This document shows positions 1 through 36,400 of a DNA stretch of 43,714 nt, piece after piece. Within the stretch, counting starts at the first letter, position 1. The number at the start of each line of letters is the position of its first letter. The stretch is taken from the sequence record OP018999.1. The stretch is one strand, 5' to 3'. Under the pieces are notes generated by a model that searched no databases, had not been told where the DNA came from, and saw only the letters and a program-made list of their open reading frames with translations. Position numbers and translations under genes: made by a program. This DNA comes from Escherichia phage NTNC80A.

Positions 1-819
1 GTGGCTAGCGAGTTCGAGAATGGTAGGCTGATTGCGTACGATTTGTCTCAGACCCAAGGGTACACGGGGAATATGCGGTCTGCTGTGTCTGACATGCAGT
101 TCCATTCCACTAATATTGAAGGCTTCACACCACGGGACTTCTTCTATGACCTAGGACACTTCCCTACCTCTTACACTAATGGTTCTTTTATCATGAAGCA
201 TTGGCGAGAAAAAGACTTACAGGTACAATGGTATAATGGTAAAGCATTCATACGGCTACATGAAGAAGATGGCCGTGTAACACTTACCAGTAAAGAGGGC
301 CTCGCTTTGTATGACTTTCGTGCTACAAAAGACGTGACGTTCAAGGGTCGCAACTTTGTATTCAAAAACGATGCAAGTGCAGACGTATTGAAGTGGTTCG
401 GCGGTTCAGGAAATATCTCCACGAAAGGCAACATCTCACCTATGGTAGATGGGGTTCCCTCTCTAGGTACAAATTCCTATCGCTGGGGTGCAGTGCATTC
501 AGTAAATGGGACGTTACAAACCTCTGATGGTAGGCTAAAGGAAATACATGATATTAAACAAGAAGAACTTGATGCTGGGCTTGAATTGTCAGCAAGCCTA
601 ATCAAATATCGTTGGGATGGAGGAGAAAAGTTCCACTTTGGTTGTATCGCCCAAGAGGTAATGTTAATCATGGAGAAACATAAGCTAGACCCATTACAGT
701 ATGGAATGGTTCAGTATGATGAAGAGGCAGACATCTTTAGTGTAAACTACGCTGAATTGAACAGCTTCTGCATCGCAGCTCTGTCTAGGAGGTTGAATGC
801 CATTGATCAAATCAGTTAA
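1..819 (+). CDS. tail fibre / receptor-binding protein with C-terminal intramolecular-chaperone (peptidase S74-like) domain
   Basis: ORF starts with GTG at base 1 and ends TAA 817-819. C-terminal ~100 aa carry SDGRLKEI...FHFGCIAQEV...YAELNSF, the Ser-Lys autocleaving chaperone signature of phage fibres/endosialidases. The 5' end may be cut by the window; no SD is visible across the circular junction. Confidence 0.6.
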   Translation: MASEFENGRLIAYDLSQTQGYTGNMRSAVSDMQFHSTNIEGFTPRDFFYDLGHFPTSYTNGSFIMKHWREKDLQVQWYNGKAFIRLHEEDGRVTLTSKEGLALYDFRATKDVTFKGRNFVFKNDASADVLKWFGGSGNISTKGNISPMVDGVPSLGTNSYRWGAVHSVNGTLQTSDGRLKEIHDIKQEELDAGLELSASLIKYRWDGGEKFHFGCIAQEVMLIMEKHKLDPLQYGMVQYDEEADIFSVNYAELNSFCIAALSRRLNAIDQIS

Positions 820-1516: not shown

Positions 1517-1659
1517 GCATAGCTAAAGCTATAAGATGCAAATAGGTCGCGGTCGGTAGGCCGCTAAAGAAAGAGAATAGTAATAAGATGCAGTAGGAGG
1601 AACACCAGAAACCTAGCCAACCTAGCCTATCCTAGCCTTGTATCTATTGCTTTTCCTTA

Positions 1660-1675
1660 GTCTCACATGTTAGAC
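1660..1675. repeat. imperfect copy (15/16) of the 16-bp palindrome GTCTCACATGTGAGAC
   Basis: Sequence gtctcacatgtTagac. Confidence 0.5.
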
Positions 1676-1742
1676 AACCTAGGTTTATCTTAGTAGTTGT
1701 GACATGTATCACATAAATAATCTATCTTAGTGAAATTTAGTG

Positions 1743-2676: not shown

Positions 2677-2711
2677 TAATGTAACCTAACTAACTAATGA
2701 GGATTAATAAC

Positions 2712-3068
2712 ATGGCTATGTCTAATATGACTTACTCTCAGGTTTACAACACTGCTCATGCTGCACTGGTTGAGCGTGTATGGGACGATGCTATTGATTG
2801 CGTTGACAATGCACACGATGCAATCCATGAGGTAGCTGATAGTGCTGTGCCTGTCTACTATGCTGACATTTTCTCAGTGATGGCGAGTGAAGGTATCGAC
2901 CACTTCTTCGAGGATTCTGGCTTAATGCCAGACACTAAAGACGTAACGGTCGTACTACAAGCCCGTATTTATGAACAACTTACCATTGATTTATGGGAAC
3001 GTGTTCAAGATATGATTGATGCATACATCGACTCTGCTGAGGATTCAGAAGAAGAAGAGGAAGAATAA
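2712..3068 (+). CDS. ocr: Ocr-like anti-restriction DNA-mimic protein (T7 gp0.3-like)
   Basis: 118 aa, MAMSNMTY... N-terminus, strongly acidic, ends EDSEEEEEE. Block [34 protein letters not shown]...[14 protein letters not shown] matches T7 gp0.3 as recalled. SD-like GAGGA precedes ATG 2712. Confidence 0.75.
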
Positions 3069-3174
3069 GGATGGAAAAGCAATACAATTTCCTCTTTTCT
3101 GATGGTGTAACCCTGAAGTGTTCCTTGCGATTTGCACAAATTCGGGAGGAAGTGCTAGGCACTACATATAAACT

Positions 3175-3198
3175 ATTTAGCTGACACTATAAGAGAAG
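3175..3198 (+). promoter_or_regulatory. off-consensus phage-type promoter-like sequence
   Basis: atttagCtgacactataAgagaag: two mismatches to the phage consensus, including A instead of G at +1; upstream of the 3265 gene. Confidence 0.3.
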
Positions 3199-3264
3199 AC
3201 TTAACAGGGCGTTACTTGTTAGCGCCCGATTAAGTTTATCTCAATGAAACAAATAGGTGACTAT

Positions 3265-4149
3265 ATGACTACTGAAAACATCCTCGTTTCTGTTCGTGAA
3301 GCTGCAACCGCTGAAATTAAGCAACACTTAGACAATATCGGCACTTCTTATCTCCGTGTTGGCGCTTGTCTTAATGAGCTACGCGGTGACTTTGAAGGTC
3401 AAAAAGACTTTTTGGCTTATGTAGAATCGGAGTTCGGCATCAAGAAAGCACAATGCTACAAGCTGATGAGCGTAGCCCGTGTCTTTGAAGGTGATGACCG
3501 TTTCAAAGGTGTGGCGATGCGTGTAATGCTGGCCCTTGTTCCTTTCGCTGATGAAAGTATCATCATGGAGAAGGCCGCAGAACTCGCCGCAGATGGCAAA
3601 TTGGACACTAACGCCGTAAACGCCCTGATTGAGCCTAAGAAAGAGCCAAAGGCCGAAACGGTACAATCTAAGGCTGAGGCGGTAAAACCGCAGGAGAACG
3701 TGACTGAGGCCGCAGAATCACAGGAAACGCAAGCGCCGCAGGTAGTTCCGCCAGTGAGTGAGCCGGAGGCTGACGAATCAGCACCGTGGGAAGAGGGAAG
3801 CAAGCCGGAAGCGCCAAAGGCCGCGCCACTGGACAACACGGCTAACACTGAGAACGCCGCCATGTCTGGCCTGCTGGCGCAGATTAAGTCACTGACTGAG
3901 CAATTACAGGCAGCTAACGACCGCATCGCCGCCCTAACCAGTGCACGCGAAAGCAAGAAAGCAGCCGCGCCTATGCTTCCACAGTTTAAATCTTCTTGCT
4001 TTTACGCTCGCTTAGGCTTGAGCGCGGAGGAGGCAACGAAGAAAACAGCAGTGAACAAGGCACGCCGTGAACTGGTTAAGCTGGGATACGGTGAAGGCCA
4101 TGAGGCATGGGCTTTAATATCTGAGGCAGTAGAAGAATTAACTAAGTAA
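3265..4149 (+). CDS. early hypothetical protein (294 aa): globular N-domain, acidic/Pro-rich linker, coiled-coil C-region
   Basis: ORF track 3244..4149; ATG 3265 has the better SD (GGTGA). Central segment KKEPKAETVQSKAEAVKPQENVTEAAESQETQAPQVVPPVSEPEADESAPWEEGSKPEAPK is low-complexity. No kinase motifs seen. Confidence 0.6.
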   Translation: MTTENILVSVREAATAEIKQHLDNIGTSYLRVGACLNELRGDFEGQKDFLAYVESEFGIKKAQCYKLMSVARVFEGDDRFKGVAMRVMLALVPFADESIIMEKAAELAADGKLDTNAVNALIEPKKEPKAETVQSKAEAVKPQENVTEAAESQETQAPQVVPPVSEPEADESAPWEEGSKPEAPKAAPLDNTANTENAAMSGLLAQIKSLTEQLQAANDRIAALTSARESKKAAAPMLPQFKSSCFYARLGLSAEEATKKTAVNKARRELVKLGYGEGHEAWALISEAVEELTK

Positions 4150-4212
4150 CCTTATCGGTGGCATCTTCTTAGGTGTCACCTATTAAGGTTTCTTTAACTA
4201 GGAGTACACAAG

Positions 4213-6840
4213 ATGCAAGATTTACACGCTATCCAGCTTCAACTAGAGGAAGAAATGTTTAACGGCGGTATTCGCCGCTTTGAAGCAGACCAACAGCGCC
4301 AAATTGCATCGGGTAATGAATCCGATACGGCTTGGAATCACCGCTTGTTGTCTGAGCTAATCGCGCCTATGGCTGAAGGTATTCAGGCTTACAAGGAAGC
4401 CTACGAAGGCAAGAAAGGACGCGCACCGCGTGCACTGGCTTTCATTAACTGCGTAGAGAACGAAGTGGCAGCATATATCACGATGAAAATCGTAATGGAT
4501 ATGCTTAACACTGATGTAACCTTGCAAGCCATAGCAATGAATGTAGCTGACCGCATCGAAGACCAAGTACGCTTCAGCAAGCTGGAAGGTCACGCCGCCA
4601 AATATTTTGAGAAAGTTAAGAAGTCACTCAAGGCAAGTAAGACTAAATCATATCGCCATGCGCACAATGTAGCTGTAGTGGCTGAGAAGTCAGTTGCCGA
4701 ACGTGACGCAGACTTCTCCCGCTGGGAAGCGTGGCCTAAGGATACCTTGCTACAAATCGGGATGACCTTGCTCGAAATACTGGAGAATAGTGTATTCTTC
4801 AACGGGCAGCCTGTTTTCCTACGCACCTTGCGTACTAATGGCGGCAAACACGGCGTTTACTACTTACAGACCAGTGAACACGTAGGCGAGTGGATAACTG
4901 CCTTCAAAGAGCACGTAGCGCAACTGAGTCCGGCCTATGCACCTTGCGTTATCCCTCCGCGTCCGTGGGTGTCACCTTTTAACGGCGGTTTTCACACTGA
5001 GAAAGTAGCAAGCCGCATCCGTCTGGTAAAAGGCAACCGTGAGCACGTCCGTAAGCTAACCAAAAAGCAAATGCCTACGGTCTATAAGGCTGTTAATGCT
5101 TTACAGGCTACGAAATGGCAGGTTAACAAGGAAGTGTTACAGGTTGTGGAAGACGTAATACGGCTTGATTTGGGCTATGGTGTGCCTTCCTTTAAGCCAC
5201 TCATCGACCGTGAGAACAAGCCAGCTAACCCCGTGCCTGTTGAGTTCCAACATTTGCGCGGTCGTGAGTTGAAAGAAATGCTAACGCCGGAGCAGTGGCA
5301 AGCCTTCATCAACTGGAAGGGCGAATGCACCAAGCTATACACCGCCGAAACTAAGCGCGGCAGTAAGTCGGCAGCTACCGTTCGCATGGTTGGACAAGCC
5401 CGAAAATACAGCCAGTTTGACGCGATCTACTTCGTGTATGCACTGGACAGCCGAAGCCGCGTTTATGCGCAATCTAGCACGCTTTCCCCGCAGTCTAACG
5501 ACTTAGGCAAGGCATTGCTCCGTTTTACCGAAGGGCAGACTATAGACAGCGCTGAGGCGCTTAAGTGGTTTTTGGTGAACGGGGCTAATAACTGGGGTTG
5601 GGATAAGAAAACTTTTGACGTGCGCACTGCTAACGTGCTGGATGGAGAGTTTCAAGATATGTGCCGCGATATTGCAGCCGACCCGCTGACTTTCACTCAA
5701 TGGGTAAATGCTGATTCTCCTTATGGATTCCTTGCGTGGTGCTTCGAGTACGCTCGTTATTTAGATGCACTGGATGAAGGTACACAGGACCAATTCATGA
5801 CGCACCTACCAGTACACCAAGATGGTAGTTGTTCTGGTATCCAGCACTATAGTGCAATGCTACGTGATGAGGTAGGCGCGAAGGCGGTAAACCTTAAGCC
5901 TTCCGACTCGCCGCAAGATATTTATGGGGCGGTGGCGCAAGTAGTTATCCAGAAGAATTACGCTTACATGAATGCAGACGACGCAGAGACTTTTACGTCT
6001 GGAAGCGTAACACTTACAGGTGCAGAACTGCGTAGCATGGCGAGCGCATGGGATATGATAGGAATCACTCGCGGCTTAACCAAAAAGCCGGTAATGACCT
6101 TGCCTTACGGATCCACTCGCTTAACCTGCCGTGAGTCAGTGATTGATTATATCATTGATTTGGAAGAAAAAGAGGCGCAGAGAGCTATTGCAGAAGGGCG
6201 GACGGCTAATCCGGTGCACCCTTTTGATAATGACCGCAAAGACTACCTAACACCTGGTGCAGCTTACAACTATATGACTGCTTTAATTTGGCCTTCTATT
6301 TCTGAGGTTGTTAAAGCACCTATAGTGGCGATGAAGATGATTCGTCAGCTTGCACGTTTTGCAGCTAAAAGAAATGAAGGCTTAGAATATACCCTACCTA
6401 CTGGCTTCATCTTGCAACAAAAGATAATGGCTACCGATATGCTTCGTGTATCCACTTGCTTGATGGGTGAGATCAAGATGAGTCTACAGATTGAGACGGA
6501 TGTAGTTGATGAAACGGCAATGATGGGCGCTGCCGCTCCTAACTTTGTTCACGGGCACGATGCTAGTCACCTTATATTAACGGTATGTGACCTAGTTGAT
6601 AAAGGGATTACATCTATTGCGGTCATCCATGACTCTTTCGGGACTCATGCAGGCCGCACCGCAGACCTGCGGGATAGCTTAAGGGCAGAAATGGTTAAGA
6701 TGTATCAAGGCCGTAATGCTTTACAGCAACTGCTGGATGAGCATGAAGAGCGTTGGCTAGTAGATACTGGCATCCAAGTGCCAGAGCAAGGGGAGTTTAA
6801 TCTTGAAGAGATATTAGTTTCTGACTATTGCTTTGCATAA
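4213..6840 (+). CDS. single-subunit DNA-directed RNA polymerase, SP6-type
   Basis: 875 aa; start [24 protein letters not shown] and motifs [33 protein letters not shown] match SP6 RNAP as recalled; end ...YCFA. Its specificity fits the promoters in this window. Confidence 0.97.
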
Positions 6841-6848
6841 TACTAATA

Positions 6849-6878
6849 GGCCATTCCTTCGGGAGTGGCCTTTTCTTT
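6849..6878 (+). terminator. intrinsic terminator after the RNAP gene
   Basis: ggccattcc-ttcg-ggagtggcc: 9-bp stem with UUCG tetraloop, then TTTTCTTT. Confidence 0.7.
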
Positions 6879-6913
6879 ACCTACTACCTGTAACATTTCA
6901 TTAACATAAACGT

Positions 6914-6929
6914 GTCTCACATGTGAGAC
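6914..6929. repeat. 16-bp perfect palindrome GTCTCACATGTGAGAC
   Basis: Exact palindrome ending 2 nt before the phage promoter at 6932. Confidence 0.8.
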
Positions 6930-6931
6930 TT

Positions 6932-6954
6932 ATTTACCGGACACTATAGGAGAG
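6932..6954 (+). promoter_or_regulatory. phage RNAP promoter (SP6-type)
   Basis: atttaccggacactataggagag; +1 G at 6949. Confidence 0.7.
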
Positions 6955-7095
6955 CCGTCGGAGACGGGAAAGAAAGGGAATATAAAGAATATAAAGGAAG
7001 TAATAGGTATTAAAGGTTATATAGGATTACCTAGGAATACCTATTACCTTCTTCCTTCCTCTTATTACTACTTAGAGGAAGGGCAGACCTAGGTC
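6955..7095. other. AT/purine-rich inter-promoter region, candidate primary origin of replication
   Basis: Region with inverted repeat aggaagtaataggtat / atacctattaccttcttcct, bracketed by two phage promoters just downstream of the RNAP gene; same position as the T7 primary origin. Confidence 0.35.
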
Positions 7096-7111
7096 GTCTC
7101 ACATGTGAGAC
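7096..7111. repeat. 16-bp perfect palindrome GTCTCACATGTGAGAC
   Basis: Exact copy, 5 nt upstream of the promoter at 7117. Confidence 0.8.
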
Positions 7112-7116
7112 TTCGT

Positions 7117-7139
7117 ATTTACCAGACAGTATAGATAAG
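7117..7139 (+). promoter_or_regulatory. phage RNAP promoter (variant)
   Basis: atttaccagacaGtatagataag; +1 G at 7134. Confidence 0.6.
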
Positions 7140-7164
7140 ACTAACTTACTTTGGAGATTTAACC

Positions 7165-7296: not shown

Positions 7297-9285
7297 ATGG
7301 CTATTATTCAGAATGTACCGTGTCCTGCTTGCCAAAAGAACGGACATGATATTACTGGCAATCATTTAATGATCTTTGACGATGGGGCAGGATACTGTAA
7401 CCGTGGTCACTTCCATGATAACGGTAAACCTTATTACCACAAGCCGGAAGGTGGCATCGAGATAACCGAGTTACCTATTACTGGCAATATCAAATATACA
7501 CCTTCTCAATTCAAAGAAATGGAGAAGGAAGGGAAGATAAGCGACCCTAAGTTGCGCGCCATCGCACTTGGTGGTATGCGTATGAAAGACCGTTGGGAGG
7601 TTATGAATGAGCAAGAAAGGGCAGACCAAGAAGCCGAGTGGAAACTCGATGTTGAATGGTTCCTCACGCTTAAGCGTAAGAACCTTGTATCCCGTCACAT
7701 TCGAGGCGACATCGCTGCAATGTATGATGTGCGCGTCGGACATGATGAAGAAGGCCGAGTCAACCGTCACTACTATCCTAGATACGAAAAGGGTGTGCTC
7801 GTGGGAGCAAAGTGCCGGACGCTGCCGAAGGATTTTAAGTTCGGTCACTTAGGTAAACTCTTTGGTATGCAAGACCTTTTCGGGATGAACACTTTGTCTC
7901 ACGTGTTAGACAAGGGAAGACGAAAGGATTGCTTGCTTATTGTAGGTGGTGAACTGGATGCACTAGCAGCGCAGCAGATGCTCCTTGATTCTGCCAAGGG
8001 TACTAAGTGGGAAGGTCAGCCATACCACGTGTGGTCTGTCAACAAAGGTGAATCTTGCCTTGAAGAGATAGTGCAAAACCGTGAACACATCGCCCAATTC
8101 AAGAAGATTATCTGGGGCTTCGATGGTGATGAGGTAGGACAGAAGCAGAACCAGCAAGCGGCTCGCCTGTTTCCCGGCAAATCCTATATCCTTGAGTACC
8201 CTTCTGGTTGCAAAGATGCCAACAAGGCATTGATGGCTGGCAAGGCTAAAGAATTTGTGGATGCTTGGTTTAATGCAAAGTCATCTGATGAAGTCTTTGG
8301 TAGCCAGATTAAATCTATCGCATCTCAAAGGGATAAGCTCAAGGCTGCACGTCCAGAACAAGGGCTGTCATGGCCTTGGCCTAAGCTAAACAAGGTAACG
8401 CTAGGTATTCGTAAGAACCAACTTATCATTGTAGGCGCAGGCTCTGGTGTAGGTAAGACTGAGTTCCTTCGTGAAGTAGTTAAGCACCTCATTGAAGAAC
8501 ACGGTGAATCTGTAGGCATCATTTCTACAGAAGACCCGATGGTCAAGGTGTCCCGTGCTTTTATCGGTAAGTGGATTGATAAGCGTATTGAGTTACCGCC
8601 AACCAACGACCCGAAAGAAGATGGATACCGTGAGGTGTTCGACTACACCGAGGAAGAAGCTAACGCCGCCATTGATTATGTAGCTGATACAGGTAAGCTG
8701 TTTGTAGCTGACCTAGAGGGTGACTATTCGATGGAAAAGGTAGAGCAAACTTGCCTAGAGTTTGAGGCTATGGGCATTTCTAATATCATCATTGATAACT
8801 TAACGGGGATTAAATTAGATGAGCGTGCTTTTGGTGGGAAGGTTGGTGCACTTGATGAATGCGTCAAGCGGATTGGTACTATCAAAGACCGACACCCGGT
8901 TACTATATTCCTTGTATCACACCTTACACGTCCTCCGGCAAACCGTACCCAACACGAAGAAGGTGGCGAGGTTATCCTTTCTGACTTCCGAGGCTCAGGC
9001 GCTATCGGATTCTGGGCATCTTACGCCTTGGGGATTGAGCGTAACACAAGAGCTGAAACGCTTGACGAAAGGACTACCACGTACATCTCATGTGTCAAAG
9101 ACCGCGACCAAGGTATCTACACTGGAACCAAGGTCATGCTTAAGGGTGACATTCAAACCGGACGTTTAATGGAACCACAAGCCCGTACTAAGTCATTTGA
9201 TACAGGTGAAGCAAGGCAACAAGAAGTGCCGGATTTACCGGACACTATAGAAGAGACAACCTTTGACGATGAACAGGAGTTTTAA
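7297..9285 (+). CDS. DNA primase/helicase (T7 gp4-like)
   Basis: N-terminal zinc ribbon CPACQKNG...CNRGH, Walker A GAGSGVGKT, acidic C-terminus ending DDEQEF. Confidence 0.95.
   Translation: MAIIQNVPCPACQKNGHDITGNHLMIFDDGAGYCNRGHFHDNGKPYYHKPEGGIEITELPITGNIKYTPSQFKEMEKEGKISDPKLRAIALGGMRMKDRWEVMNEQERADQEAEWKLDVEWFLTLKRKNLVSRHIRGDIAAMYDVRVGHDEEGRVNRHYYPRYEKGVLVGAKCRTLPKDFKFGHLGKLFGMQDLFGMNTLSHVLDKGRRKDCLLIVGGELDALAAQQMLLDSAKGTKWEGQPYHVWSVNKGESCLEEIVQNREHIAQFKKIIWGFDGDEVGQKQNQQAARLFPGKSYILEYPSGCKDANKALMAGKAKEFVDAWFNAKSSDEVFGSQIKSIASQRDKLKAARPEQGLSWPWPKLNKVTLGIRKNQLIIVGAGSGVGKTEFLREVVKHLIEEHGESVGIISTEDPMVKVSRAFIGKWIDKRIELPPTNDPKEDGYREVFDYTEEEANAAIDYVADTGKLFVADLEGDYSMEKVEQTCLEFEAMGISNIIIDNLTGIKLDERAFGGKVGALDECVKRIGTIKDRHPVTIFLVSHLTRPPANRTQHEEGGEVILSDFRGSGAIGFWASYALGIERNTRAETLDERTTTYISCVKDRDQGIYTGTKVMLKGDIQTGRLMEPQARTKSFDTGEARQQEVPDLPDTIEETTFDDEQEF
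9233..9255 (+). promoter_or_regulatory. phage RNAP promoter embedded in the 3' end of the helicase gene
   Basis: atttaccggacactatagaagag; +1 G at 9250; simultaneously encodes DLPDTIEE. Confidence 0.6.
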
Positions 9286-9446
9286 TGGGAATTATTAAAC
9301 CAGTATTGAATATCGGTATTGAGATCCTATTCATGCTTGTGATCGCAGATTATGCTGCACGATATGGCTTCAAGAAAGCAGTGAAACTTATCGTTGCATC
9401 TGGTTTTATGATGTCAATGTTCTTTATTGTAACACGCTTTATCTAG
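9285..9446 (+). CDS. small hydrophobic membrane protein (53 aa), hypothetical
   Basis: ATG overlaps the helicase stop (TAATG). MGIIKPVLNIGIEILFMLVIADYAARYGFKKAVKLIVASGFMMSMFFIVTRFI has two hydrophobic segments. Confidence 0.4.
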   Translation: MGIIKPVLNIGIEILFMLVIADYAARYGFKKAVKLIVASGFMMSMFFIVTRFI

Positions 9447-9463
9447 TGTATTTATCAGGGCTT

Positions 9464-9479
9464 GTCTCACATGTGAGAC
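9464..9479. repeat. 16-bp perfect palindrome within an extended hairpin
   Basis: gcttgtctcaca/tgtgagacaggc gives a ~12-bp stem, followed by CTCTTATT; could act as a terminator or processing site. Confidence 0.7.
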
Positions 9480-9519
9480 AGGCTCTTATTAAGTACATTA
9501 ACTAATTGGAGATAATATT

Positions 9520-10467: not shown

Positions 10468-10718
10468 AACAACGTGCAATCAAACGCTGTATCAAGCGTG
10501 CTCAAAAGCAGTTACATCGTGGCACATTTAAAGGGCGACTTGCTGTAGTACAACCAAGCATGACTGGTGCAGTCTTTGCATTTGAAGATGTATATAGTGT
10601 CGTGCGTCCAAATGGTAGTGATTGCCAGTGGGGCTTCGCAGGATTTAAGTTTAAGTCAGGGCACTCACATTGGTATAACCGAGGATACCTTACAGCCGTG
10701 GCGGTGTCTTATGTCTAA
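10464..10718 (+). CDS. hypothetical basic protein (84 aa)
   Basis: ORF track; ATGA overlap with the previous gene. Confidence 0.5.
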   Translation: MKQRAIKRCIKRAQKQLHRGTFKGRLAVVQPSMTGAVFAFEDVYSVVRPNGSDCQWGFAGFKFKSGHSHWYNRGYLTAVAVSYV

Positions 10719-11050: not shown

Positions 11051-13547
11051 TTGGAAGAAGGAAGCAGAAGGCCGTATCCTAGTGATGGATGCGGAAGCAA
11101 AAGGTTTGCTTGATGCTATCCGCTACGGTCATCGTGAAGATGTGCATATCATTTGCTGCATGGACTTGCTTACTACCGAGGAGTTCCTCTTCTTTGACCC
11201 GTATGAGATGCGTGACCCTGAAGCAAGGGAGCGCCTGAAGGAATGGGAAGGCCATCAAGATGGTGACTTGGTTGATGGTGTTAACTTTCTGAAACACTGT
11301 GAAGCCATCGTGTCACAGAACTTCCTAGGGTATGACGGCCTTCTCTTTGAGAAAGCATTCCCTAATATCTGGAAAGGCTTTAACTACACAGAGAAGCGCG
11401 GCAAGGGCAGGCTCCGTGCCGACCTGTGTCCTGTGCGAGTCATGGACACGCTGGTGATGAGCCGCCTGTTAAACCCCGATAGACGCCTCCCTCCGCAAGC
11501 ATACGCCAAAGGTATGGGTAACGTCGCCCCTCACTCAATTGAGGCGCACGGCATCCGTATAGGCCGCTATAAACCGGAGAACGAGGACTGGTCTAAACTG
11601 ACCGACCACATGGTTCACCGTGTACGTGAGGACGTGGCGATTGGTCGTGACCTGTTCCTCTGGCTCTTTAACGGGGAATGGATGGAGCACAAACGCCGTG
11701 GCGTGAATAAACGTACAGGCCTAGGTATTGAGACAGCCTTCCACATGGAATCCATTGTGGCGCTGGAGATGAGCCGACAAGCCGAGCGTGGGTTCCGTCT
11801 GGATATTGACAAGGCTTTGGCCCGATGCGAAGAACTGGACGCTAAGATTGACGAGACAGTCGCAGCGTTCCGCCCACACATGCCTATGCGTATCAAGTCT
11901 AAACCTTTTAAACCGGAAGAAAAGAATGAAGTATGCCAACGCGCAAATGAGTATGGAGCTAGTAACAATATACCTACTGTCCTTGACCCCTCACACTTTC
12001 TTCATGCCGAGAGACGAGGGGATCGCAAGACAGTATGGAGTGTCACTACTAAGTCTGGTGATTGGTCGGCTAGTGTCAAGAAAGACTTTCCTCACCTTAG
12101 AGGAAACCGTAATGACACGCCAAGCATCAAGTGGGTTGGCGCTTACTCGCCTGTTACTTTCGAAGAGATTCCCTTGGGTAACAGGGATACAGTTAAGCAA
12201 GTGCTCTATGATTATGGATGGAAAGGTGTTGAGTTTAACGATACCGAGCAAGCGCATCTCGATGAGTATGGCGTATTACCCAAGCCTTGGAGTGGCAAGA
12301 TAAATGAGAAGTCCCTTACTTTATGGCAGGAAAGAGCCGCACGTGAAGGTAAAACAGTCCCTGATTGGTGCTTGGGTATCGCTGCATGGTACATACTCGT
12401 ATCCCGTCGTGGTCAGATCCTCAACCGTGGTGACGTTGAAGCCTTCAACGAGAAAGGGGCGTGGCCCTCGCAGGCTGGTGTACGAAAGTGTCGCGGCCTT
12501 GTACCTGTAGCCTTTAACAAGGAGCTAGGAATCAATGCGCAGCAATACTATGAAAGGTATGGGTGTTGGCCTACGTCTGACAAGGATGACGGAGAGTGGC
12601 GTGTGCCAGGCAATGCTGTTACTATTGGCACTAATACGTTCCGTATGCGTCATCGTAACATCGTTAATATTCCTTCCCGTGGGTTGTATCCTTTACGTGA
12701 TTTATTCATAGCTAGCAAAGGCAAAATGATACTTGGGTGTGATGGTGCAGGTCTTGAGCTTCGCATCTTAGCCCATTTCATGGGTGACCCTGAGTATATT
12801 GATATTGTCTTGAATGGTGATATTCACTCGCACAACCAAGCGAAGGCTGGATTGCCCCTGCGTGACACTGCGAAAACATTTATCTACGCTTTTCTCTATG
12901 GGTCTGGCATACCAAATCTTGCAGCTGTATGTGGCATGACTGAAGCACAGATGAAAGAATGTGTCGCTCGCTTTGAAGTAGAGCTACCACATTTAGCTAA
13001 ACTTAAAGAAGGAGTAGAATCTGCTGCTTCAACCTTTGGATACATGCACGCTGTAGATGGTCGATGGGGACGTGTACGCGTTAGCAATGGTGAGATTAAG
13101 ATTCACACTTGTCTTAACGTACTGCTCCAGATGACTGGCTCCCTCACTATGAAGTACTCAAAGGTGAAGGCTCTCGCTACTATGCGAAAAGAAGGTGTTG
13201 CTCTTGATGAGAATGGAAACCCTGCTATGCTTGTAGACTATCACGATGAATGGCAGATGGAGGTTCCTGAAGATGAAGTCTTAGAGATTCGCTACTCCAT
13301 CCCTTCTTCTGAATGGAAAGAAGAAGAGAAACGCCAGTATCGTGACAGCGAAGGACGCATATGGTCTGCGCCTAAAATAGTTGAAGGCAACCCTAAAGAG
13401 GATGAAGAGGTAACAGTACGTCGCAGGTATCATCGTGCTGGTGAAATCCTAGCTGAATCTATTACGTGGGCTGGAGAATATCTCAAGCTACGCATCCGAA
13501 TGGATGGCGAATATATGCTTGGATATTCATGGGCTGAAACGCACTGA
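11037..13547 (+). CDS. DNA polymerase, family A (T7 gp5-like)
   Basis: 836 aa from ATG 11037 (SD GAGG); motifs GCDGAGLELRILAHFM, GDIHSHNQ, KTFIYAFLYGSG align with T7 DNA polymerase as recalled. Confidence 0.95.
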   Translation: MKTIDWKKEAEGRILVMDAEAKGLLDAIRYGHREDVHIICCMDLLTTEEFLFFDPYEMRDPEARERLKEWEGHQDGDLVDGVNFLKHCEAIVSQNFLGYDGLLFEKAFPNIWKGFNYTEKRGKGRLRADLCPVRVMDTLVMSRLLNPDRRLPPQAYAKGMGNVAPHSIEAHGIRIGRYKPENEDWSKLTDHMVHRVREDVAIGRDLFLWLFNGEWMEHKRRGVNKRTGLGIETAFHMESIVALEMSRQAERGFRLDIDKALARCEELDAKIDETVAAFRPHMPMRIKSKPFKPEEKNEVCQRANEYGASNNIPTVLDPSHFLHAERRGDRKTVWSVTTKSGDWSASVKKDFPHLRGNRNDTPSIKWVGAYSPVTFEEIPLGNRDTVKQVLYDYGWKGVEFNDTEQAHLDEYGVLPKPWSGKINEKSLTLWQERAAREGKTVPDWCLGIAAWYILVSRRGQILNRGDVEAFNEKGAWPSQAGVRKCRGLVPVAFNKELGINAQQYYERYGCWPTSDKDDGEWRVPGNAVTIGTNTFRMRHRNIVNIPSRGLYPLRDLFIASKGKMILGCDGAGLELRILAHFMGDPEYIDIVLNGDIHSHNQAKAGLPLRDTAKTFIYAFLYGSGIPNLAAVCGMTEAQMKECVARFEVELPHLAKLKEGVESAASTFGYMHAVDGRWGRVRVSNGEIKIHTCLNVLLQMTGSLTMKYSKVKALATMRKEGVALDENGNPAMLVDYHDEWQMEVPEDEVLEIRYSIPSSEWKEEEKRQYRDSEGRIWSAPKIVEGNPKEDEEVTVRRRYHRAGEILAESITWAGEYLKLRIRMDGEYMLGYSWAETH

Positions 13548-13565: not shown

Positions 13566-13994
13566 ATGGCTAATCGTAAAGAGATGGAGATTGTTAAGTT
13601 AGATAATGGCTGTCTCGTGCAGACTAGCCATAAGCTCAATCCTGATGGTTACTTTCGTAAGCGTATATGGCATGAAGGTCGCTTGCAGCACATGATGTAC
13701 CATCGTTACATGTGGATTCAAAAGCATGGTGAGATACCAAAAGGGTATGAAGTTGACCACAAATGTAAGAATCGTGCATGTTTCAATGTTGACCATTTAC
13801 AATTACTTAAGTCGTCTGAGCATAGAACTAAAGACAATACAGGCCGTCATGGTGATAAGAAGCAAGCTGCATATTTAATTTGGAAGCAGCATTGCGGAGC
13901 TATTACAGGAGCTGCCCTAGCTGAATTGGTTGGTGTATCATTCAGTGCTACGTGTAAGTGGATTAGAGGCTGGAGGACTAATGAGCACCAGTGA
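13566..13994 (+). CDS. HNH homing endonuclease
   Basis: VDHKCKNRACFNVDHLQL HNH motif; free-standing gene right after the polymerase; SD AGGAGA. Confidence 0.85.
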   Translation: MANRKEMEIVKLDNGCLVQTSHKLNPDGYFRKRIWHEGRLQHMMYHRYMWIQKHGEIPKGYEVDHKCKNRACFNVDHLQLLKSSEHRTKDNTGRHGDKKQAAYLIWKQHCGAITGAALAELVGVSFSATCKWIRGWRTNEHQ

Positions 13995-15851: not shown

Positions 15852-16298
15852 ATGACTTCCGATCAGATAAAAGAGAAGATACAGAATAATATTGTTGTAT
15901 CTGAAACTGGATGCTGGTTGTGGCAGAAGTCTATAGCTACTAATGGATATGGTAACATCTGCGTAGGTAAAGGAAGAAACAGAGCAGTTCACAGGGTTGC
16001 TTGTGAACTGTATCACGGAGTTCCACCTACGCGTATGGATGCCGTTCATTCTTGTGACAATAAGGCTTGTTGCAATCCAGAACACCTGTCTTGGGGAACA
16101 AGGAGTCGTAATGAAATAGAGGCTGTGAGAAGGCTAGGTAAGTCACATAAACTTAAACTACATGAAGCAGCATACATTAAGTTCTCCGGTTTACCTACTA
16201 AAGAATTAGTAGGTATGTTCTCTGTGAGTAAAGATTTAATTAACAGAATTAAGCGTGGTGTCTTATGGGCACACGTAACCAAGGGGGATTTAAGATGA
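15852..16298 (+). CDS. HNH homing endonuclease
   Basis: HSCDNKACCNPEHLSWGT HNH motif plus C-terminal helix-turn-helix-like region. Confidence 0.85.
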   Translation: MTSDQIKEKIQNNIVVSETGCWLWQKSIATNGYGNICVGKGRNRAVHRVACELYHGVPPTRMDAVHSCDNKACCNPEHLSWGTRSRNEIEAVRRLGKSHKLKLHEAAYIKFSGLPTKELVGMFSVSKDLINRIKRGVLWAHVTKGDLR

Positions 16299-16513: not shown

Positions 16514-16520
16514 AGTCTCA
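16505..16520. repeat. 16-bp perfect palindrome GTCTCACATGTGAGAC
   Basis: Exact copy, 15 nt upstream of the promoter at 16536. Confidence 0.8.
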
Positions 16521-16535
16521 CATGTGAGACAAATC

Positions 16536-16558
16536 GGTGTCCGGTATTTACTGGACAC
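16536..16558 (+). promoter_or_regulatory. phage RNAP promoter (consensus)
   Basis: atttactggacactatagaagag; +1 G at 16553. Confidence 0.75.
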
Positions 16559-33358: not shown

Positions 33359-33375
33359 TGGTATACTCAAGGTTT

Positions 33376-33391
33376 GTCTCACATGTGAGAC
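33376..33391. repeat. 16-bp perfect palindrome (18 bp with flanks)
   Basis: tGTCTCACATGTGAGACa between two internal virion protein genes. Confidence 0.8.
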
Positions 33392-33425
33392 ATGCCTTCA
33401 TGAATGACACTAACTAGGAGGTAAC

Positions 33426-36400
33426 ATGGTTGATGGTATTAACCAAAACTGGGTGGCGGTGACTCAACGCAAGTTACCGCCTACCTTCTCTCAAGTTGCT
33501 GAAGCCGAACGTAAGGCTGAAGCCCAGAGAGTTAATGATAAAGTATTTCAAACAGCAATAGAAAGTGAGTGGGCTTTGTATGGCGGACAACGTGCCTATG
33601 AACGCCACACTACAGAGTTTGCTGAACAAGAAGGCTATGAAGTACCTGAATCAACTAAGGATGAACTATCCAAGTTGTATGGGTATGAAATAGCACAAGA
33701 CATAGTTAAGAATGTAAAGTCTCCAGAAGAGTTGCAATTCCGTATGTCTAATGCTGCTGCTGATAAAGACAGAGCAGACATCTTGGCACGTAATGGTTTC
33801 ACGGGTTTCAGCGCGCAAATTGCTGCTGGCATCCTTGACCCTGTAGGTTGGGCTGCATCCTTAGTGGCTGCACCTGTAGCGGGTGCTGTCAAAGTAGGTC
33901 GGCTAGGTAGGATTATCAAGACGGCTGCCTTATCGGGTGCTGAAAATGCTGCATTAGAAGCTATACTTGCACAAGGTGATTACCAGCGAGGGGTTGATGA
34001 TGTACTAGCTGCTGCTGGATTTGGTATGATTATGGGCGGCACTATTGGCGCTGCAACCAGAGAACGCATAGCCAGTGCTGGTTCTCGTACAGCAGCAGAA
34101 CGAGCAGATACTGTAATTGATGATTTGGATACTGTAGTAAAAGGTGCTGATGAATTTGACTTGTCTGCGGCTCGTGCTGTACGTGAGGCCATGGAATATG
34201 ACGCGTATATGGCAGCCCGTAATTACGAACCACTTCGTGCTAGAGAGGTAGATGCAGACATGGCGATCTTATCTCACACAGACAACTTGAAAGCCAATGC
34301 ATCGGTAAGGATGAGTGCTAGTGAGAAAGGACAACTGAAGAAGCAGATACGTCAGCTTGAAGCAGAAGCAGCAACACTTAAAGGGAAGAAAATAGATACT
34401 GTAGCAGAAGCTGCGGCTGCTAAGGGTGCGCCTAAATCTGCTGCTGACAGATTGGATTTGGACGTTCAGAAGAAGGCATTAGCACGTAGATTCGATGAAC
34501 CACTGGCAGACTTGCAAGCTCGACTTGATGAGTTGAATGCTAAGTTGTCTCGTGTAAACAATGTAGGCAAAGCCAAGGAGGAGCTTAAGAGATTCTCATC
34601 GCTATCTCGTGAAGAGCAAATAAAGGAGCTAGGATTAGATGCACCAGTGCGCAGGGTGGAGATGACCCGTGCTGTGCGCGATGCAGTTGAAGCAATCCGT
34701 GCCGAGCGTAAGAAAACGCCTACCGAAGTACATGCTGAACAAGTTGCAGAAGATGCAATTAAGCAACGGGCGGATGACTCTGTTGGTGCTAAACGTGTTG
34801 AAGGCTCAGAGATTGCAGGTGAACAGTTTGACCTATCTAAAAACATGGAAGAACTTATGGATGACTTGGCACGAGAAGCATATCAGTCAGAGGTGCGGCC
34901 TATTAATCTTAAAGGTTTGGGTTCAGTGTCCTCTGTGATTCTTAACTCAGAAAACCCTGTGTTCCGAGGTCTAGGTCTTCGTCTGCTTGAAAATGCTCAA
35001 GGTGGTGCATACCAAGGTAAGACAGCTTCTATCTTATCAGATGTGTATGGCAACCTTATTCGTCATGCAGAACGCAATAGGTACAATGATGGCTTCTCCC
35101 AATTCATCAAAGACAATAACCTACGTGCTGTAGACTACCTTAACCCTGCAACGACACGTGATTTCAATAATCAGATTTATACAGCAATTGTTCGTGGCAT
35201 ACCAGAAGACACACCTCGTGGTGTTAAACTGGCAGCCGAAGGTATCGCAGATAAACTCAAGAAGGCACTGGAGATTCGTAAGCAAGCAGGAGAGCGAGGC
35301 TTCGAGGATGTGCAATCTGCTAAAGATTATATTCCAGTTATCTATGATGGTATCAAAGTAACGGAGGCAGTTAACAAGTTAGGAAGTAGTGAGGCTGTCA
35401 TTCACCTGCTATCTAAGGGGTATCAGACAGGTAAATACAAACTAGGTAAGAAGGCTGCTGATGCTCTGGCTAAAGTCCAGTACATTCGCGCATCTGATTC
35501 CACTCTCTCCAGCCGTGTTGCATTCGATAGAGTGGTATCCCAGCAGCAGCAGGCTCAATTGATTGAGGATCTGAAGAAAGCAGGCGTACCAGACCATATC
35601 ATTGATAATTTCATTGAAGGTACGGAATTAGCAGAAATGGCTGAATCAGTATCCAATCGAGCTAAAGCTAGTATGGGTATTAATACGCAAGCCGAATACG
35701 GTGGCTTGAAGGTGCAGGATTTGCTTAATACCAACGTAGGAGAGTTAGCGGAGAACTACGGCAAAGAGGCGGCAGGCGGTGCTGCACTAGCTGCCATGGG
35801 TTTCCCTACTCGCCAGTCTGTGCTGAACGCAATAGATGCCGCAGAACGCGCAGGCCGCAATATGGCGGGGTCAAATGCTAAGGCAATCAAACAACTTAGG
35901 TCTGAGGCAGAAATGCTCAGAGATGCCGTTAAGCTCATTTATGGCAACACTATTGACGCCGACCCTAACTCTGGGATTGTCAGGGGCACTCGACGTGTCC
36001 GTGAGATTACAGGCTTGTTACGATTAGGCCAAATGGGTTTCGCTCAGATACCGGAACTGGCACGTGCAATCTCTAAGATGGGATTAGGAACTGTGCTGAA
36101 GTCCACACCCGCCACGAAGTTCTTACGTTCAAGGGCGGCTCGTAAGGGAGGCACAGCTCAAGGTGAATTACTTGAACCCGAACTGCGAGAAATGGAGGAA
36201 CTCTTAGGCTATATCGGGGAAGATAACTGGCTTACAGGGTGGAACGTCCGTCATGATGAGTTCGGAGAAACTGCTGATAACCTAGGTAAGTTGTCCGCTA
36301 TTATTGATAATGGCTTGGCTATGGGTAGTCGAATCAACACAATTCTCTCTGGTTTTAAAGCAGTACAAGGTGGTTCAGAGAAAATTGTAGCTCGCTCTAT

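What the first reader, a model, noticed from the sequence alone, without database searches (positions are those of the whole stretch)
3265..4149. Early 294-aa protein with globular N-domain, long acidic/Pro-rich linker and coiled-coil C-region
It is the last gene before the RNAP, where T7 has the gp0.7 kinase/shut-off protein, but no kinase motifs are visible. The ~70-residue acidic low-complexity linker could serve as a nucleic-acid mimic or flexible tether. An off-consensus phage-type promoter with +1 A sits just upstream (3175-3198), so it may be expressed from both host and phage polymerases.
Basis: seen in the sequence. Interest (0 to 1): 0.55.

Follow-up and report, generated by a model that had tools for sequence, protein, structure and literature searches.

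The report
Phage DNA-binding protein with genome-wide palindromes
The unnamed early gene just upstream of the RNA polymerase gene of this SP6/K1E-like phage most likely encodes a sequence-specific DNA-binding protein whose targets are a 16-bp palindrome repeated seven times in the phage genome, a regulatory layer not described for T7-type phages.

Summary
The ORF is real: 3265-4149, 294 aa. It is the orthologue of SP6/K1-5 'gene 6', function unknown. It sits before the RNAP gene in 213 phage records.

Residues 10-122 form a helical domain with a helix-turn-helix. It is a remote DUF3102 relative with the fold of the KorB/ParB DNA-binding domain. Residues 123-195 are a disordered, poorly conserved acidic/Pro linker. 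Residues 196-231 have a 4-3 heptad pattern. Residues 235-294 form a J-like domain, preceded by an almost invariant PxLPQF motif. No family member has the HPD motif.

The new finding is the palindrome GTCTCAC-AT-GTGAGAC, seven copies, six outside ORFs. A conserved pair flanks the promoters and AT-rich spacer just after the RNAP gene.

Every gp6-encoding phage examined has such a repeat, and its half-site covaries with residues 63/65/66 of the predicted recognition helix. K66 goes with TCAC, N/H66 with YAAC, W63/R66 with TAGT, Y63/R66 with TACA and H65 with TACC. This cuts across phylogeny and held on three further metagenomic contigs; a fourth showed a new coupled change. T7 and phiKMV have neither gene nor repeat.

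The gp0.7-like shut-off and nucleic-acid-mimic ideas are not supported. What the binding achieves remains inferred.

The parts
3175..3197 (+). Variant SP6-type phage promoter (ATTTAGCTGACACTATA|AGAGAA, A at +1) upstream of the gene.
   Evidence: 18 of 21 positions match the consensus; it is one of 9 matches in the window against 0 expected. The element, including the A at +1, is conserved in four relatives including SP6.
3207..3227 (+). Conserved 8-bp stem-loop in the 5' leader of the phage-promoter transcript.
   Evidence: Found. The stem is kept through different sequences in KMB14 and SP6.
3265..4149 (+). CDS of 294 aa, orthologue of SP6/K1-5 gene 6 (gp7 in the other SP6 numbering). RBS AGGTGA at 3255-3260.
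3292..3630 (+). N-terminal helical DNA-binding domain (aa 10-122), a remote DUF3102 relative with a KorB/ParB DNA-binding-domain fold.
3400..3486 (+). Predicted helix-turn-helix (helices aa 46-57 and 61-74). Specificity residues are Q63, Y65 and K66; the K66 codon AAG is at 3460-3462.
   Evidence: Helix boundaries. Covariation of residues 63/65/66 with the half-site sequence.
3631..3849 (+). Disordered acidic/Pro-rich linker (aa 123-195).
3850..3957 (+). Long helix (aa 196-231) with a 4-3 hydrophobic repeat; presumed dimerising coiled coil.
   Evidence: Helix. The heptad pattern was read from the sequence printed. Dimerisation is inferred.
3970..3987 (+). PMLPQF (aa 236-241), a PxLPQF motif that is nearly invariant across the family.
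3967..4146 (+). C-terminal J-like domain (aa 235-294). GYGEGHE (nt 4084-4104) occupies the place of the HPD loop.
1660..1675 (.). Palindrome variant GTCTCACATGTTAGAC at the genome's left end, about 25 bp upstream of the -35 hexamer of the first of the sigma-70-like early promoter matches.
   Evidence: Relatives carry a site at the same place.
6914..6929 (.). Palindrome GTCTCACATGTGAGAC, lying after the early terminator (6848-6871) and 2 bp upstream of a phage promoter (6932-6952).
7096..7111 (.). Second palindrome of the post-RNAP pair, 5 bp upstream of a variant promoter (7117-7137). The two are separated by an AT/purine-rich non-coding spacer.
   Evidence: A cluster of 2-3 sites occupies this position in every lineage checked.
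7896..7911 (.). Variant GTCTCACGTGTTAGAC inside the primase/helicase ORF, conserved in position in Vectrevirus and SP6.
9464..9479 (.). Palindrome between the primase gene and the next gene. It forms the tip of a longer RNA-type hairpin.
16515..16530 (.). Palindrome 15 bp upstream of the phage promoter at 16546.
33376..33391 (.). Palindrome in the intergenic gap before the gene that starts at 33426.
4213..6840 (+). Phage single-subunit RNA polymerase gene, downstream of gp6 and upstream of the early terminator, so presumably in the same early transcription unit.

Best explanation
The gene encodes an early, phage-genome-specific DNA-binding adaptor.

Proposed mechanism:
1. The N-terminal KorB/ParB-type helix-turn-helix domain, dimerised through the 196-231 coiled coil, recognises the 16-bp palindrome GTCTCAC-AT-GTGAGAC.
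2. The palindrome occurs seven times in this genome: at the left end upstream of the early promoters, as a pair bracketing the promoters and AT-rich spacer just downstream of the RNAP gene, next to a further middle promoter, and in three other places.
3. Residues Q63, Y65 and K66 of the recognition helix read the inner bases of each half-site.
4. A roughly 70-residue disordered acidic linker tethers a conserved PxLPQF motif and a J-like domain without HPD to these sites. This module presumably holds a host or phage partner there.

Most likely outcome (inferred, not shown): KorB-like control of the first phage-RNAP (middle) promoters. Control of initiation at an origin-like region after gene 1 is the main alternative.

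Expression would come from host early promoters and from a conserved variant phage promoter at 3175, together with the RNAP gene.
For: Fold and family.
- 33 of 105 family members match Pfam DUF3102.
- The closest viral structure models are DUF3102 proteins.

The sites are real.
- 7 copies against 0.14 expected.
- The most frequent inverted-repeat arm occurs 7 times, against 1-3 in 30 shuffles.
- 6 of 7 copies lie outside + strand ORFs, which cover 92% of the window; P about 2e-6.

Co-occurrence.
- All 7 whole genomes that encode gp6 carry a GTC-N4...N4-GAC inverted repeat in 5-9 copies.
- So do 34 of 37 IMG/VR loci. In the other three the repeat was not the most frequent inverted repeat or occurred only twice; one of them, CrRp3, has four copies elsewhere on its contig.
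- T7 and phiKMV have neither the gene nor such a repeat.
- Of 12 IMG/VR stretches with two or more copies of the motif, 11 are SP6-like. Six show the gene itself and five carry RNAP, primase or other SP6-like genes.

Covariation.
- Q63/K66 with GTCTCAC: 18 of 18 loci.
- Q63 with N66 or H66 with GTCYAAC: 15 of 15.
- W63/R66 with GTCTAGT: 3 of 3.
- Y63/R66 with GTCTACA.
- Position 66 is the only conserved column of the 294 that separates the two large classes.
- In the RNAP alignment 0 conserved columns of 863 do so.
- Trees built from gp6 and from RNAP both nest Vectrevirus (K66/TCAC) inside the N66/YAAC clade. Protein and sites therefore switched together at least twice.

Prospective test.
- Helices were read before the sites were searched, on four metagenomic contigs.
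- Three Y63/Y65/R66 proteins gave GTCTACA as predicted.
- One Y63/H65/R66 protein gave a new half-site, GTCTACC.

The core behaves as duplex DNA.
- Asymmetries within the core show no strand bias: 15 are G.U-compatible on the + strand, 13 on the - strand, and 19 do not pair at all.
Against: - No binding experiment exists. The link between protein and site rests on covariation and fold.
- The query itself has no Pfam hit, and Foldseek matches to PDB structures are weak, E > 1.
- Half-site spacing differs by 1 bp between lineages (16 or 17 bp) and occasionally within one genome. A rigid dimer would not tolerate this.
- 12 of 85 sites are the tips of longer + strand hairpins with G.U pairs and compensatory changes. 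Some RNA-level function is therefore superimposed and unexplained.
- The functional outcome (transcriptional control or replication) and the partner of the J-like domain are pure inference.
- Most loci are phylogenetically related, so independent coupled switches number only about five.
Confidence: 0.7

Rival explanations
1. The palindromes are RNA (or single-strand) hairpins, such as processing, stability or pause/termination signals, with no relation to this protein. On this view the covariation with the helix is a phylogenetic coincidence and the protein does something else.
For: - 12 of 85 sites extend by 4 or more further pairs on the + strand when G.U is allowed, against 2 on the - strand.
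- RNAalifold on 10 such sites gives a 14-bp stem plus an outer helix, and 11 of 19 pairs are kept through double changes.
- Several sites lie directly before ribosome-binding sites.
- One-base changes in spacing are trivial for a hairpin loop.
Against: - Inside the core, 32 of 47 asymmetries would break a + strand RNA pair, and there is no strand bias: 15 against 13.
- 73 of 85 sites have no extension.
- One site lies upstream of the first early promoter in every genome.
- Position 66 is the only conserved gp6 column that tracks the half-site. No conserved RNAP column does, and the relation predicted the sites on new contigs.
- No Rfam family matches anywhere in the window.
Confidence: 0.12
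2. The protein is an origin-binding initiator or adaptor. It marks the origin-like region after the RNAP gene, and a left-end secondary origin, and uses its J-like domain to bring DnaK or the phage helicase there. Analogies are the lambda O/P-DnaJ/DnaK system and the J-domain plus origin-binding-domain arrangement of polyomavirus large T antigen.
For: - A cluster of 2-3 sites flanks two promoters and an AT-rich non-coding spacer directly after the RNAP gene in every lineage.
- T7's primary origin (phi1.1A/B) lies at this position, and phiOL lies at the left end. The T7 map is; the origin assignments are my own knowledge.
- The C-terminal domain has a J-like fold.
Against: - The HPD tripeptide needed for Hsp70 activation is absent from all 105 members.
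- Other sites sit next to unrelated promoters, before ribosome-binding sites and inside ORFs.
- No origin has been mapped in these phages in anything I could read.
Confidence: 0.25
3. One reading: a host shut-off or takeover factor standing in for T7 gp0.7, whose acidic linker mimics nucleic acid to trap host RNAP or nucleoid proteins.
For: - Same genomic position as T7 gene 0.7.
- SP6-like phages have no annotated gp0.7 or gp2 equivalent.
- The linker carries a net charge of -9.
Against: - No kinase or other takeover family matches in Pfam, NCBIfam or PADLOC.
- The conserved parts are the helix-turn-helix and the J-like domain. The linker is the least conserved part and is predicted to be disordered.
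- The protein's inferred targets lie on the phage genome itself.
- Ocr is encoded next door.
Confidence: 0.07

Closest known systems
KorB of IncP plasmid RK2 (central DNA-binding domain, PDB 1r71/8qa8)
   Same: - From my own knowledge, KorB is a dimeric helix-turn-helix protein. It binds a short palindrome (OB) present in about a dozen copies on its own replicon, at varied distances from promoters, and acts as a global regulator with a partner protein.
- The site layout here is similar: 5-11 palindromes, some directly upstream of promoters and others far from any.
   Different: - There is no N-terminal ParB/CTPase domain and no KorB C-terminal dimerisation domain. A coiled coil and a J-like domain take their place.
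- No sequence similarity is detectable, even at E up to 10.
- The replicon is a lytic T7-type phage, and the nearby promoters belong to a single-subunit RNAP.
ParB/Spo0J/SopB/VirB centromere- or operator-binding helix-turn-helix proteins and 16-bp parS
   Same: - parS is a 16-bp site bound by a ParB dimer (abstracts of 10.1101/2021.05.05.442573 and PMC5002424, seen).
   Different: - No ParA partner, no CTPase domain and no evidence of spreading.
- Sites are dispersed over the early and middle regions rather than clustered as a centromere.
J-domain proteins and J-like proteins without HPD (e.g. Tim16/Pam16)
   Same: - It also matches weakly by profile.
- Helix II is basic, as in J domains.
   Different: - HPD is replaced by GYGxGHE, YNPD, YTPE or other sequences in all 105 members.
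- Pfam DnaJ scores stay below the cut-off.
- Canonical Hsp70 ATPase stimulation is therefore unlikely.
Repressor and 'stoperator' network of Cluster A mycobacteriophages (L5 gp71)
   Same: A phage-encoded helix-turn-helix protein with many copies of its short site dispersed through the phage genome, mostly in short intergenic gaps. This is my own knowledge; PMC6550527 was seen by title only.
   Different: - Stoperators are asymmetric, orientation-dependent and serve lysogenic silencing.
- Here the sites are palindromic, the phage is strictly lytic, and the protein carries a J-like module.
T7 gp0.7 (protein kinase / host shut-off)
   Same: Same map position, immediately upstream of the RNAP gene.
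   Different: - No sequence, family or fold similarity.
- A 'protein kinase' label in some relatives' records is attached to the ocr gene and is an annotation error.

Membership tests
DUF3102 (Pfam PF11300) | Match to the Pfam model at or above its gathering score (24.4 bits). | tested here: inconclusive
   The window protein has no Pfam hit even at E up to 1. 33 of 105 family members match at E up to 0.01, and two reach 25.2-26.7 bits, above the cut-off. The nearest BFVD models are DUF3102 proteins. This makes it a remote relative rather than a scoring member.
ParB/KorB superfamily | Central helix-turn-helix DNA-binding domain of the KorB/ParB fold. | tested here: met
   [not shown]
ParB/KorB superfamily | N-terminal ParB/Srx-like CTP-binding domain. 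| tested here: not met
   The helix-turn-helix domain starts at about residue 10, which leaves no room for such a domain. No ParB-type Pfam family matches the protein or any of the 105 relatives.
ParB/KorB superfamily | Binds a short palindrome present in several copies on its own replicon. | tested here: inconclusive
   Binding was not measured. It is supported indirectly by co-occurrence and by covariation of residues 63/65/66 with the half-site, including a prospective test.
J-domain (Pfam DnaJ, PF00226) | J-domain fold (helices I-III) and a profile match. | tested here: inconclusive
   [not shown]
J-domain (Pfam DnaJ, PF00226) | Invariant His-Pro-Asp tripeptide between helices II and III. 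| tested here: not met
   No HPD at the aligned position in any of the 105 sequences. The window has GYGEGHE there.
J-domain (Pfam DnaJ, PF00226) | Stimulates Hsp70/DnaK ATPase. | not testable with these tools
   This needs biochemistry.
T7 gp0.7-type protein kinase | Kinase homology or motifs. | tested here: not met
   No Pfam, PHROG, NCBIfam or structural match to any kinase.
Ocr-type DNA mimic | Folded, highly acidic surface that mimics B-DNA, with a match to the Pfam ocr model. | tested here: not met
   The linker is predicted to be disordered, is 22% acidic and is poorly conserved. The Pfam ocr model matches the neighbouring gene instead.

The most novel reading that the evidence does not exclude
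SP6-like phages (Molineuxvirinae, Colwellvirinae, Gajwadongvirus and uncultured relatives) run a conserved operator network. One early protein reads a lineage-specific palindrome through a simple two- or three-residue code. Through its tethered J-like/PxLPQF module it recruits a host chaperone or a phage replication or transcription enzyme. This would time the switch from host-RNAP to phage-RNAP transcription, or fire the origin after gene 1. T7 manages without such a site-specific regulatory layer.
Probability: 0.3. Interest if true: 0.85.

Novelty: new variant of a known kind. Interest (0 to 1): 0.68.

Why it matters
As far as I know, gene expression in T7-type phages is explained by RNA polymerases, promoter strength, terminators and a few protein inhibitors. 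No site-specific DNA-binding regulator is part of that picture.

A conserved operator-binding protein with a readable recognition code, present throughout the SP6/K1E/K1-5 lineage, would add such a layer. That lineage includes many therapeutic and biotechnological phages.

Three practical consequences follow:
- It gives a function to one of the most conserved 'hypothetical' early genes of the group.
- It identifies cis-elements that genome engineers should not delete.
- It offers a small set of orthogonal protein-operator pairs (TCAC, CAAC, TAGT, TACA, TACC) for synthetic biology.

It also points to the probable origin/regulatory region after gene 1, and to a J-like module whose partner is unknown.

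Tried and rejected
Searches that gave nothing useful:
- Pfam, NCBIfam and PADLOC on the protein itself found nothing. PHROGs gives only an unnamed family.
- Foldseek against the PDB gave only E > 1. The afdb50 library was unavailable.
- Rfam has no match in the window.
- IMG/VR scans with single distant proteins found nothing. Alignments A2 and A4 were too diverse for locus scans.
- The first contig look-up returned only 1.4 kb.
- The two SP6 genome papers are not in the held library.
- Full-text searches for the palindrome, for DUF3102 and for phage J-domain proteins found nothing relevant. Two genome papers list the gene as unknown.

Ideas considered and rejected:
- A kinase or shut-off protein: there is no homology.
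- The linker as a DNA mimic: it is disordered and unconserved, and ocr is encoded next door.
- A canonical DnaJ co-chaperone: there is no HPD.
- The palindrome as a CRP or other host-factor site. The half-site changes between phages of closely related hosts and is kept between phages of E. coli, Erwinia, Vibrio and Pseudomonas.
- The palindrome as a T7-type primase site. The bases 5' of GTC are not conserved; this was read against my own knowledge of T7 primase sites.
- The core as an RNA hairpin: its asymmetries show no strand bias.
- Another DNA-binding protein of the phage as the binder. Ten further early and middle ORFs showed only HNH endonucleases, Ocr and unknown families.

An early strict 16-bp filter wrongly suggested that PM93, VEN and Alpheus lack the repeat. 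A search with arms and a variable spacer corrected this.
Full report
**What the window is.** The sequence is a complete, circularly permuted genome of a Vectrevirus, a K1E/K1-5/SP6-like member of Autographiviridae, subfamily Molineuxvirinae. Region 3000-4400 is about 90% identical to many such phages. The flagged ORF lies between an ocr gene (2697-3068; Pfam ocr E 9e-42) and the single-subunit RNAP gene (4213-6840).

**Checking the observation.**
- The ORF 3265-4149 (294 aa) has a good ribosome-binding site (AGGTGA, 4 nt spacer). The upstream ATG at 3244 is missing in relatives.
- It is the orthologue of 'gene 6' of SP6 and K1-5, called gp7 in the other SP6 numbering.
- It belongs to PHROG 4571, function unknown.
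- tblastn finds it, full length, in 213 phage records. These infect Escherichia, Salmonella, Klebsiella, Proteus, Erwinia, Pectobacterium, Vibrio, Aeromonas, Pseudomonas and Marinomonas.
- In every annotated relative or contig examined it lies zero to three small genes upstream of the RNAP gene.
- The wider family has 135 clusters at 50% identity.
- GenBank names such as 'endolysin' and 'late transcription factor VLTF-4' for this gene are unsupported. So is 'protein kinase' for the neighbouring ocr gene.

**Architecture.** AlphaFold2 on a 105-sequence alignment gave a mean pLDDT of 82.6.

| Residues | Feature | Confidence |
|---|---|---|
| 10-122 | six-helix domain | pLDDT about 95 |
| 123-195 | no structure | pLDDT 48-70 |
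| 196-231 | one long helix | mostly pLDDT above 90 |
| 235-294 | small helical domain | pLDDT about 97 |

- The linker has 16 D/E, 7 K/R and 11 P in 73 residues. It varies from 49 to 85 residues among homologues and is the least conserved part.
- The long helix shows a regular 4-3 spacing of L/I/A, as read from the sequence. I take it as a dimerising coiled coil; this is an inference.

**What the domains are.**
- N-domain by sequence: the protein has no Pfam hit, but 33 of 105 relatives match DUF3102, two of them above the curated cut-off.
- Foldseek lists the same DNA-binding proteins, but weakly. The nearest viral models are DUF3102 proteins.
- Helices 46-57 and 61-74 form the helix-turn-helix.
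- 12 relatives match Pfam DnaJ just under the cut-off.
- The HPD tripeptide that defines functional J domains is absent from all 105 sequences. The loop reads GYGxGHE, YNPD, YTPE and other variants.
- Directly before the domain, PxLPQF is almost invariant.
- The C-terminus is therefore a J-like module, comparable to Tim16, and not a canonical co-chaperone.

**The unexpected part: a matching set of DNA sites.**
- While scanning the surroundings I noticed a perfect 16-bp palindrome, GTCTCACATGTGAGAC, twice just after the RNAP gene.
- It occurs five times exactly and twice with 1-2 changes, against 0.14 expected.
- No other palindrome of 10 bp or more recurs in the window.
- Six of the seven copies lie outside + strand ORFs, which cover 92% of the genome; P about 2e-6.

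Layout of the seven copies:

| Position | Context |
|---|---|
| 1660 | upstream of the sigma-70-like early promoters |
| 6914 | 2 bp upstream of a phage-type promoter; first of the post-RNAP pair |
| 7096 | 5 bp upstream of a phage-type promoter; second of the pair |
| 7896 | inside the primase gene |
| 9464 | in a short gap before a gene start |
| 16515 | 15 bp upstream of the promoter at 16546 |
| 33376 | in a short gap before a gene start |

The 6914/7096 pair brackets a purine/AT-rich non-coding spacer of about 150 bp, directly after the early terminator at 6848-6871.

**Related phages.**
- All seven whole genomes that encode a gp6 homologue carry an equivalent repeat in 5-9 copies: 7-nt arms, outer GTC...GAC, and a 2- or 3-nt centre.

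| Phage(s) | Arm | Centre |
|---|---|---|
| Erwinia phiEa100 | GTCTCAC | 2 nt |
| Vibrio VEN, Pseudomonas Alpheus | GTCTCAC | 3 nt |
| SP6 | GTCYAAC | 2 nt |
| Proteus PM93 | GTCCAAC | 3 nt |
| ECBP5 | GTCTAGT | 2 nt |

- My first, strictly 16-bp filter missed the 17-bp versions.
- A left-end site and a cluster of 2-3 sites directly after the RNAP gene recur in every lineage.
- T7 and phiKMV have no gp6 homologue and no such repeat.
- In the reverse direction, of 12 IMG/VR stretches with two or more copies of GTCTCAC-NN-GTGAGAC, 11 are SP6-like. Six show the gene itself and five carry RNAP, primase or other SP6-like genes. One (L131) is unrelated.

**Linking the protein to the sites.**

Half-site class and recognition-helix residues (window numbering) across 37 IMG/VR loci plus the full genomes:

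| Half-site | Residues | Loci |
|---|---|---|
| GTCTCAC | Q63 / K66 | 18 of 18 |
| GTCYAAC | Q63 / N66 (14) or H66 (SP6) | 15 of 15 |
| GTCTAGT | W63 / R66 | 3 of 3 |
| GTCTACA | Y63 / R66 | 1 of 1 |

- Position 66 is the only conserved column of the 294 that separates the two large classes.
- The same test on the RNAP alignment finds no conserved column among 863.
- Neighbour-joining trees of gp6 (helix removed) and of RNAP both nest Vectrevirus (K66/TCAC) inside the N66/YAAC clade. Erwinia, Vibrio and Pseudomonas phages (K66/TCAC) fall outside it. Protein and all sites therefore changed together at least twice.
- As a prospective test I read the helix of four distant family members from metagenomes before looking at their contigs. 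Three Y63/Y65/R66 proteins had GTCTACA sites, as predicted. One Y63/H65/R66 protein had a new half-site, GTCTACC.
- The half-site is the same in phages of E. coli, Erwinia, Vibrio and Pseudomonas, yet differs between phages of E. coli and Salmonella. The reader of the site is therefore phage-encoded.
- Ten other early and middle ORFs of the window showed no alternative sequence-specific DNA-binding fold.

**DNA or RNA?**
- A subset of the sites (12 of 85, including 9464) is the tip of a longer + strand hairpin, with G.U pairs and compensatory changes. Only 2 extend on the opposite strand. The 33376 site folds into the same consensus hairpin with one mismatch.
- Those copies therefore also carry an RNA-level feature that I cannot explain.
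- Within the 7-nt arms, however, 32 of 47 asymmetries would break a + strand pair, and there is no strand bias: 15 against 13.
- Most sites have no extension, and one site lies upstream of the first early promoter.
- Together with the helix-turn-helix fold, this favours recognition of the core as duplex DNA by a dimer.
- The 16/17-bp spacing variation argues for a flexible dimer and remains a weak point.

**How it most likely works.**

Shown computationally:
- the fold of both domains;
- the reality, placement and conservation of the sites;
- the co-occurrence and covariation.

Inferred:
- dimerisation through the coiled coil;
- direct binding;
- readout by residues 63/65/66.

Speculative:
- The outcome. 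The layout resembles KorB and its operators on RK2 (my own knowledge). I therefore favour control of the first phage-RNAP promoters and of the early-to-middle transition.
- The post-RNAP cluster (two promoters plus an AT-rich spacer) occupies the place of T7's primary origin. The left-end site occupies the place of phiOL. The T7 map is; the origin assignments are my own knowledge. A role in replication initiation is therefore the main alternative.
- The partner of the PxLPQF/J-like module is unknown. The motif is conserved from Vibrio to E. coli phages, which points to a conserved host protein or a core phage enzyme.

**Expression.**
- Sigma-70-like promoter matches lie upstream at 1743 and 2556, and the first strong terminator-like hairpin follows the RNAP gene.
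- The variant phage promoter at 3175 (A at +1), with its conserved leader hairpin, precedes gene 6, or genes 5-6 in SP6 and KMB14, together with the RNAP gene.
- A similar arrangement was noted for the Vibrio phage phiA318, which also lists the gene as unknown (PMC4099482).

**Novelty.** I found no description of the protein's function or of the palindrome in the searchable literature. The two original SP6 genome papers could not be read, so an earlier mention of the repeat cannot be excluded. Each building block is known: a ParB/KorB-type helix-turn-helix, a coiled coil and a J-like domain. The combination, and an operator network in a lytic T7-type phage, appear to be new. I rate it a new variant of a known kind.

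Noticed in passing
window 9448-9496 and 33360-33408; SP6 (L008) 8531-8579, 9367-9415, 30553-30601; PM93 (L013) 10522-10571, 11600-11649, 32112-32161: A subset of the palindromes forms the tip of a stem-loop of about 14 bp, plus an outer helix, on the transcribed strand. It has G.U pairs and compensatory changes: 11 of 19 pairs are kept through double changes. 12 of 85 sites extend on the + strand against 2 on the - strand. These may be processing or stability elements superimposed on the protein sites. I cannot explain them.
   Followed up: partly
window 6872-7164: The 290-bp non-coding region after the RNAP gene has an origin-like layout, in this order: terminator, palindrome, phage promoter, a purine/AT-rich spacer of about 150 bp with repeated AGGAA/TAGGTA/ATAAAG motifs, palindrome, variant promoter (GACAGTATAG). 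T7 has phi1.1A/B and its primary origin at this position.
   Followed up: partly
window 3207-3227 (and L003, L004): The stem-loop right after the variant promoter at 3175 keeps its pairing through different sequences: GGGCGTT..AGCGCCC here, AGGCGTTGC..GTAGCGCCT in KMB14, GGGTATTCT..AGAGTACCC in SP6. It is probably a structured 5' end of the phage-RNAP transcript.
   Followed up: partly
window 7896-7911; SP6 (L008) 7071-7086: The site inside the primase/helicase ORF is kept at the same codons in Vectrevirus and SP6, and follows each phage's half-site type (GTCTCAC against GTCTAAC). By my reading of the two DNA sequences this costs a His-to-Asn change in the primase. That suggests selection on the DNA site within coding sequence.
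   Followed up: partly
window 1610-1690, 7030-7095: CCTAGG-containing motifs (ACCTAGG, and tandem CCTAGCC at 1613-1640) lie next to the left-end and second post-RNAP palindromes. SP6 and PM93 show similar motifs at the same places. Their function is unknown.
   Followed up: no
L131 (IMGVR_UViG_3300043399_000927) 2433-2512: This viral contig shows no detectable similarity to SP6-like genes. It carries two copies of GTCTCAC-NN-GTGAGAC 64 bp apart in an AT-rich region. It may be an independent operator pair for a related helix-turn-helix protein.
   Followed up: no
window 13566-13994 and 15852-16298: Two HNH_3 homing-endonuclease genes lie in the DNA-metabolism region. The ACG-C91 annotation lists none in the corresponding region; its only HNH gene lies near the holin and terminase genes. 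They are probably mobile insertions.
   Followed up: no
window 1-819 and about 950-1700: The window is a circularly permuted assembly. It opens inside the C-terminal part of a large ORF; in the collinear relative ACG-C91 the tail-spike gene lies at that end of the genome. It then crosses the genome end and non-coding left end before the early genes. ORFs listed in 1091-1522 are probably spurious.
   Followed up: no
relatives' records (MN384978, KY295893, KY295891, MG775042, OR424384): Public annotations of this gene ('endolysin', 'andolysin', 'late transcription factor VLTF-4') and of the adjacent ocr gene ('protein kinase') conflict with the family and fold evidence. They look like propagated errors.
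   Followed up: partly
ECBP5 (L010) 5995, 6061, 14590: ECBP5 has a second inverted-repeat family, GTACTAG-N6-CTAGTAC. It lies 25-40 bp from its GTCTAGT palindromes at two of the loci, which hints at composite sites in that lineage.
   Followed up: no
family alignment A2, N-termini: Many distant family members (e.g. ECBP5 and phiEa100) carry an extra 30-150 residues before the helix-turn-helix domain. These residues are absent from the window protein, and their content was not examined.
   Followed up: no
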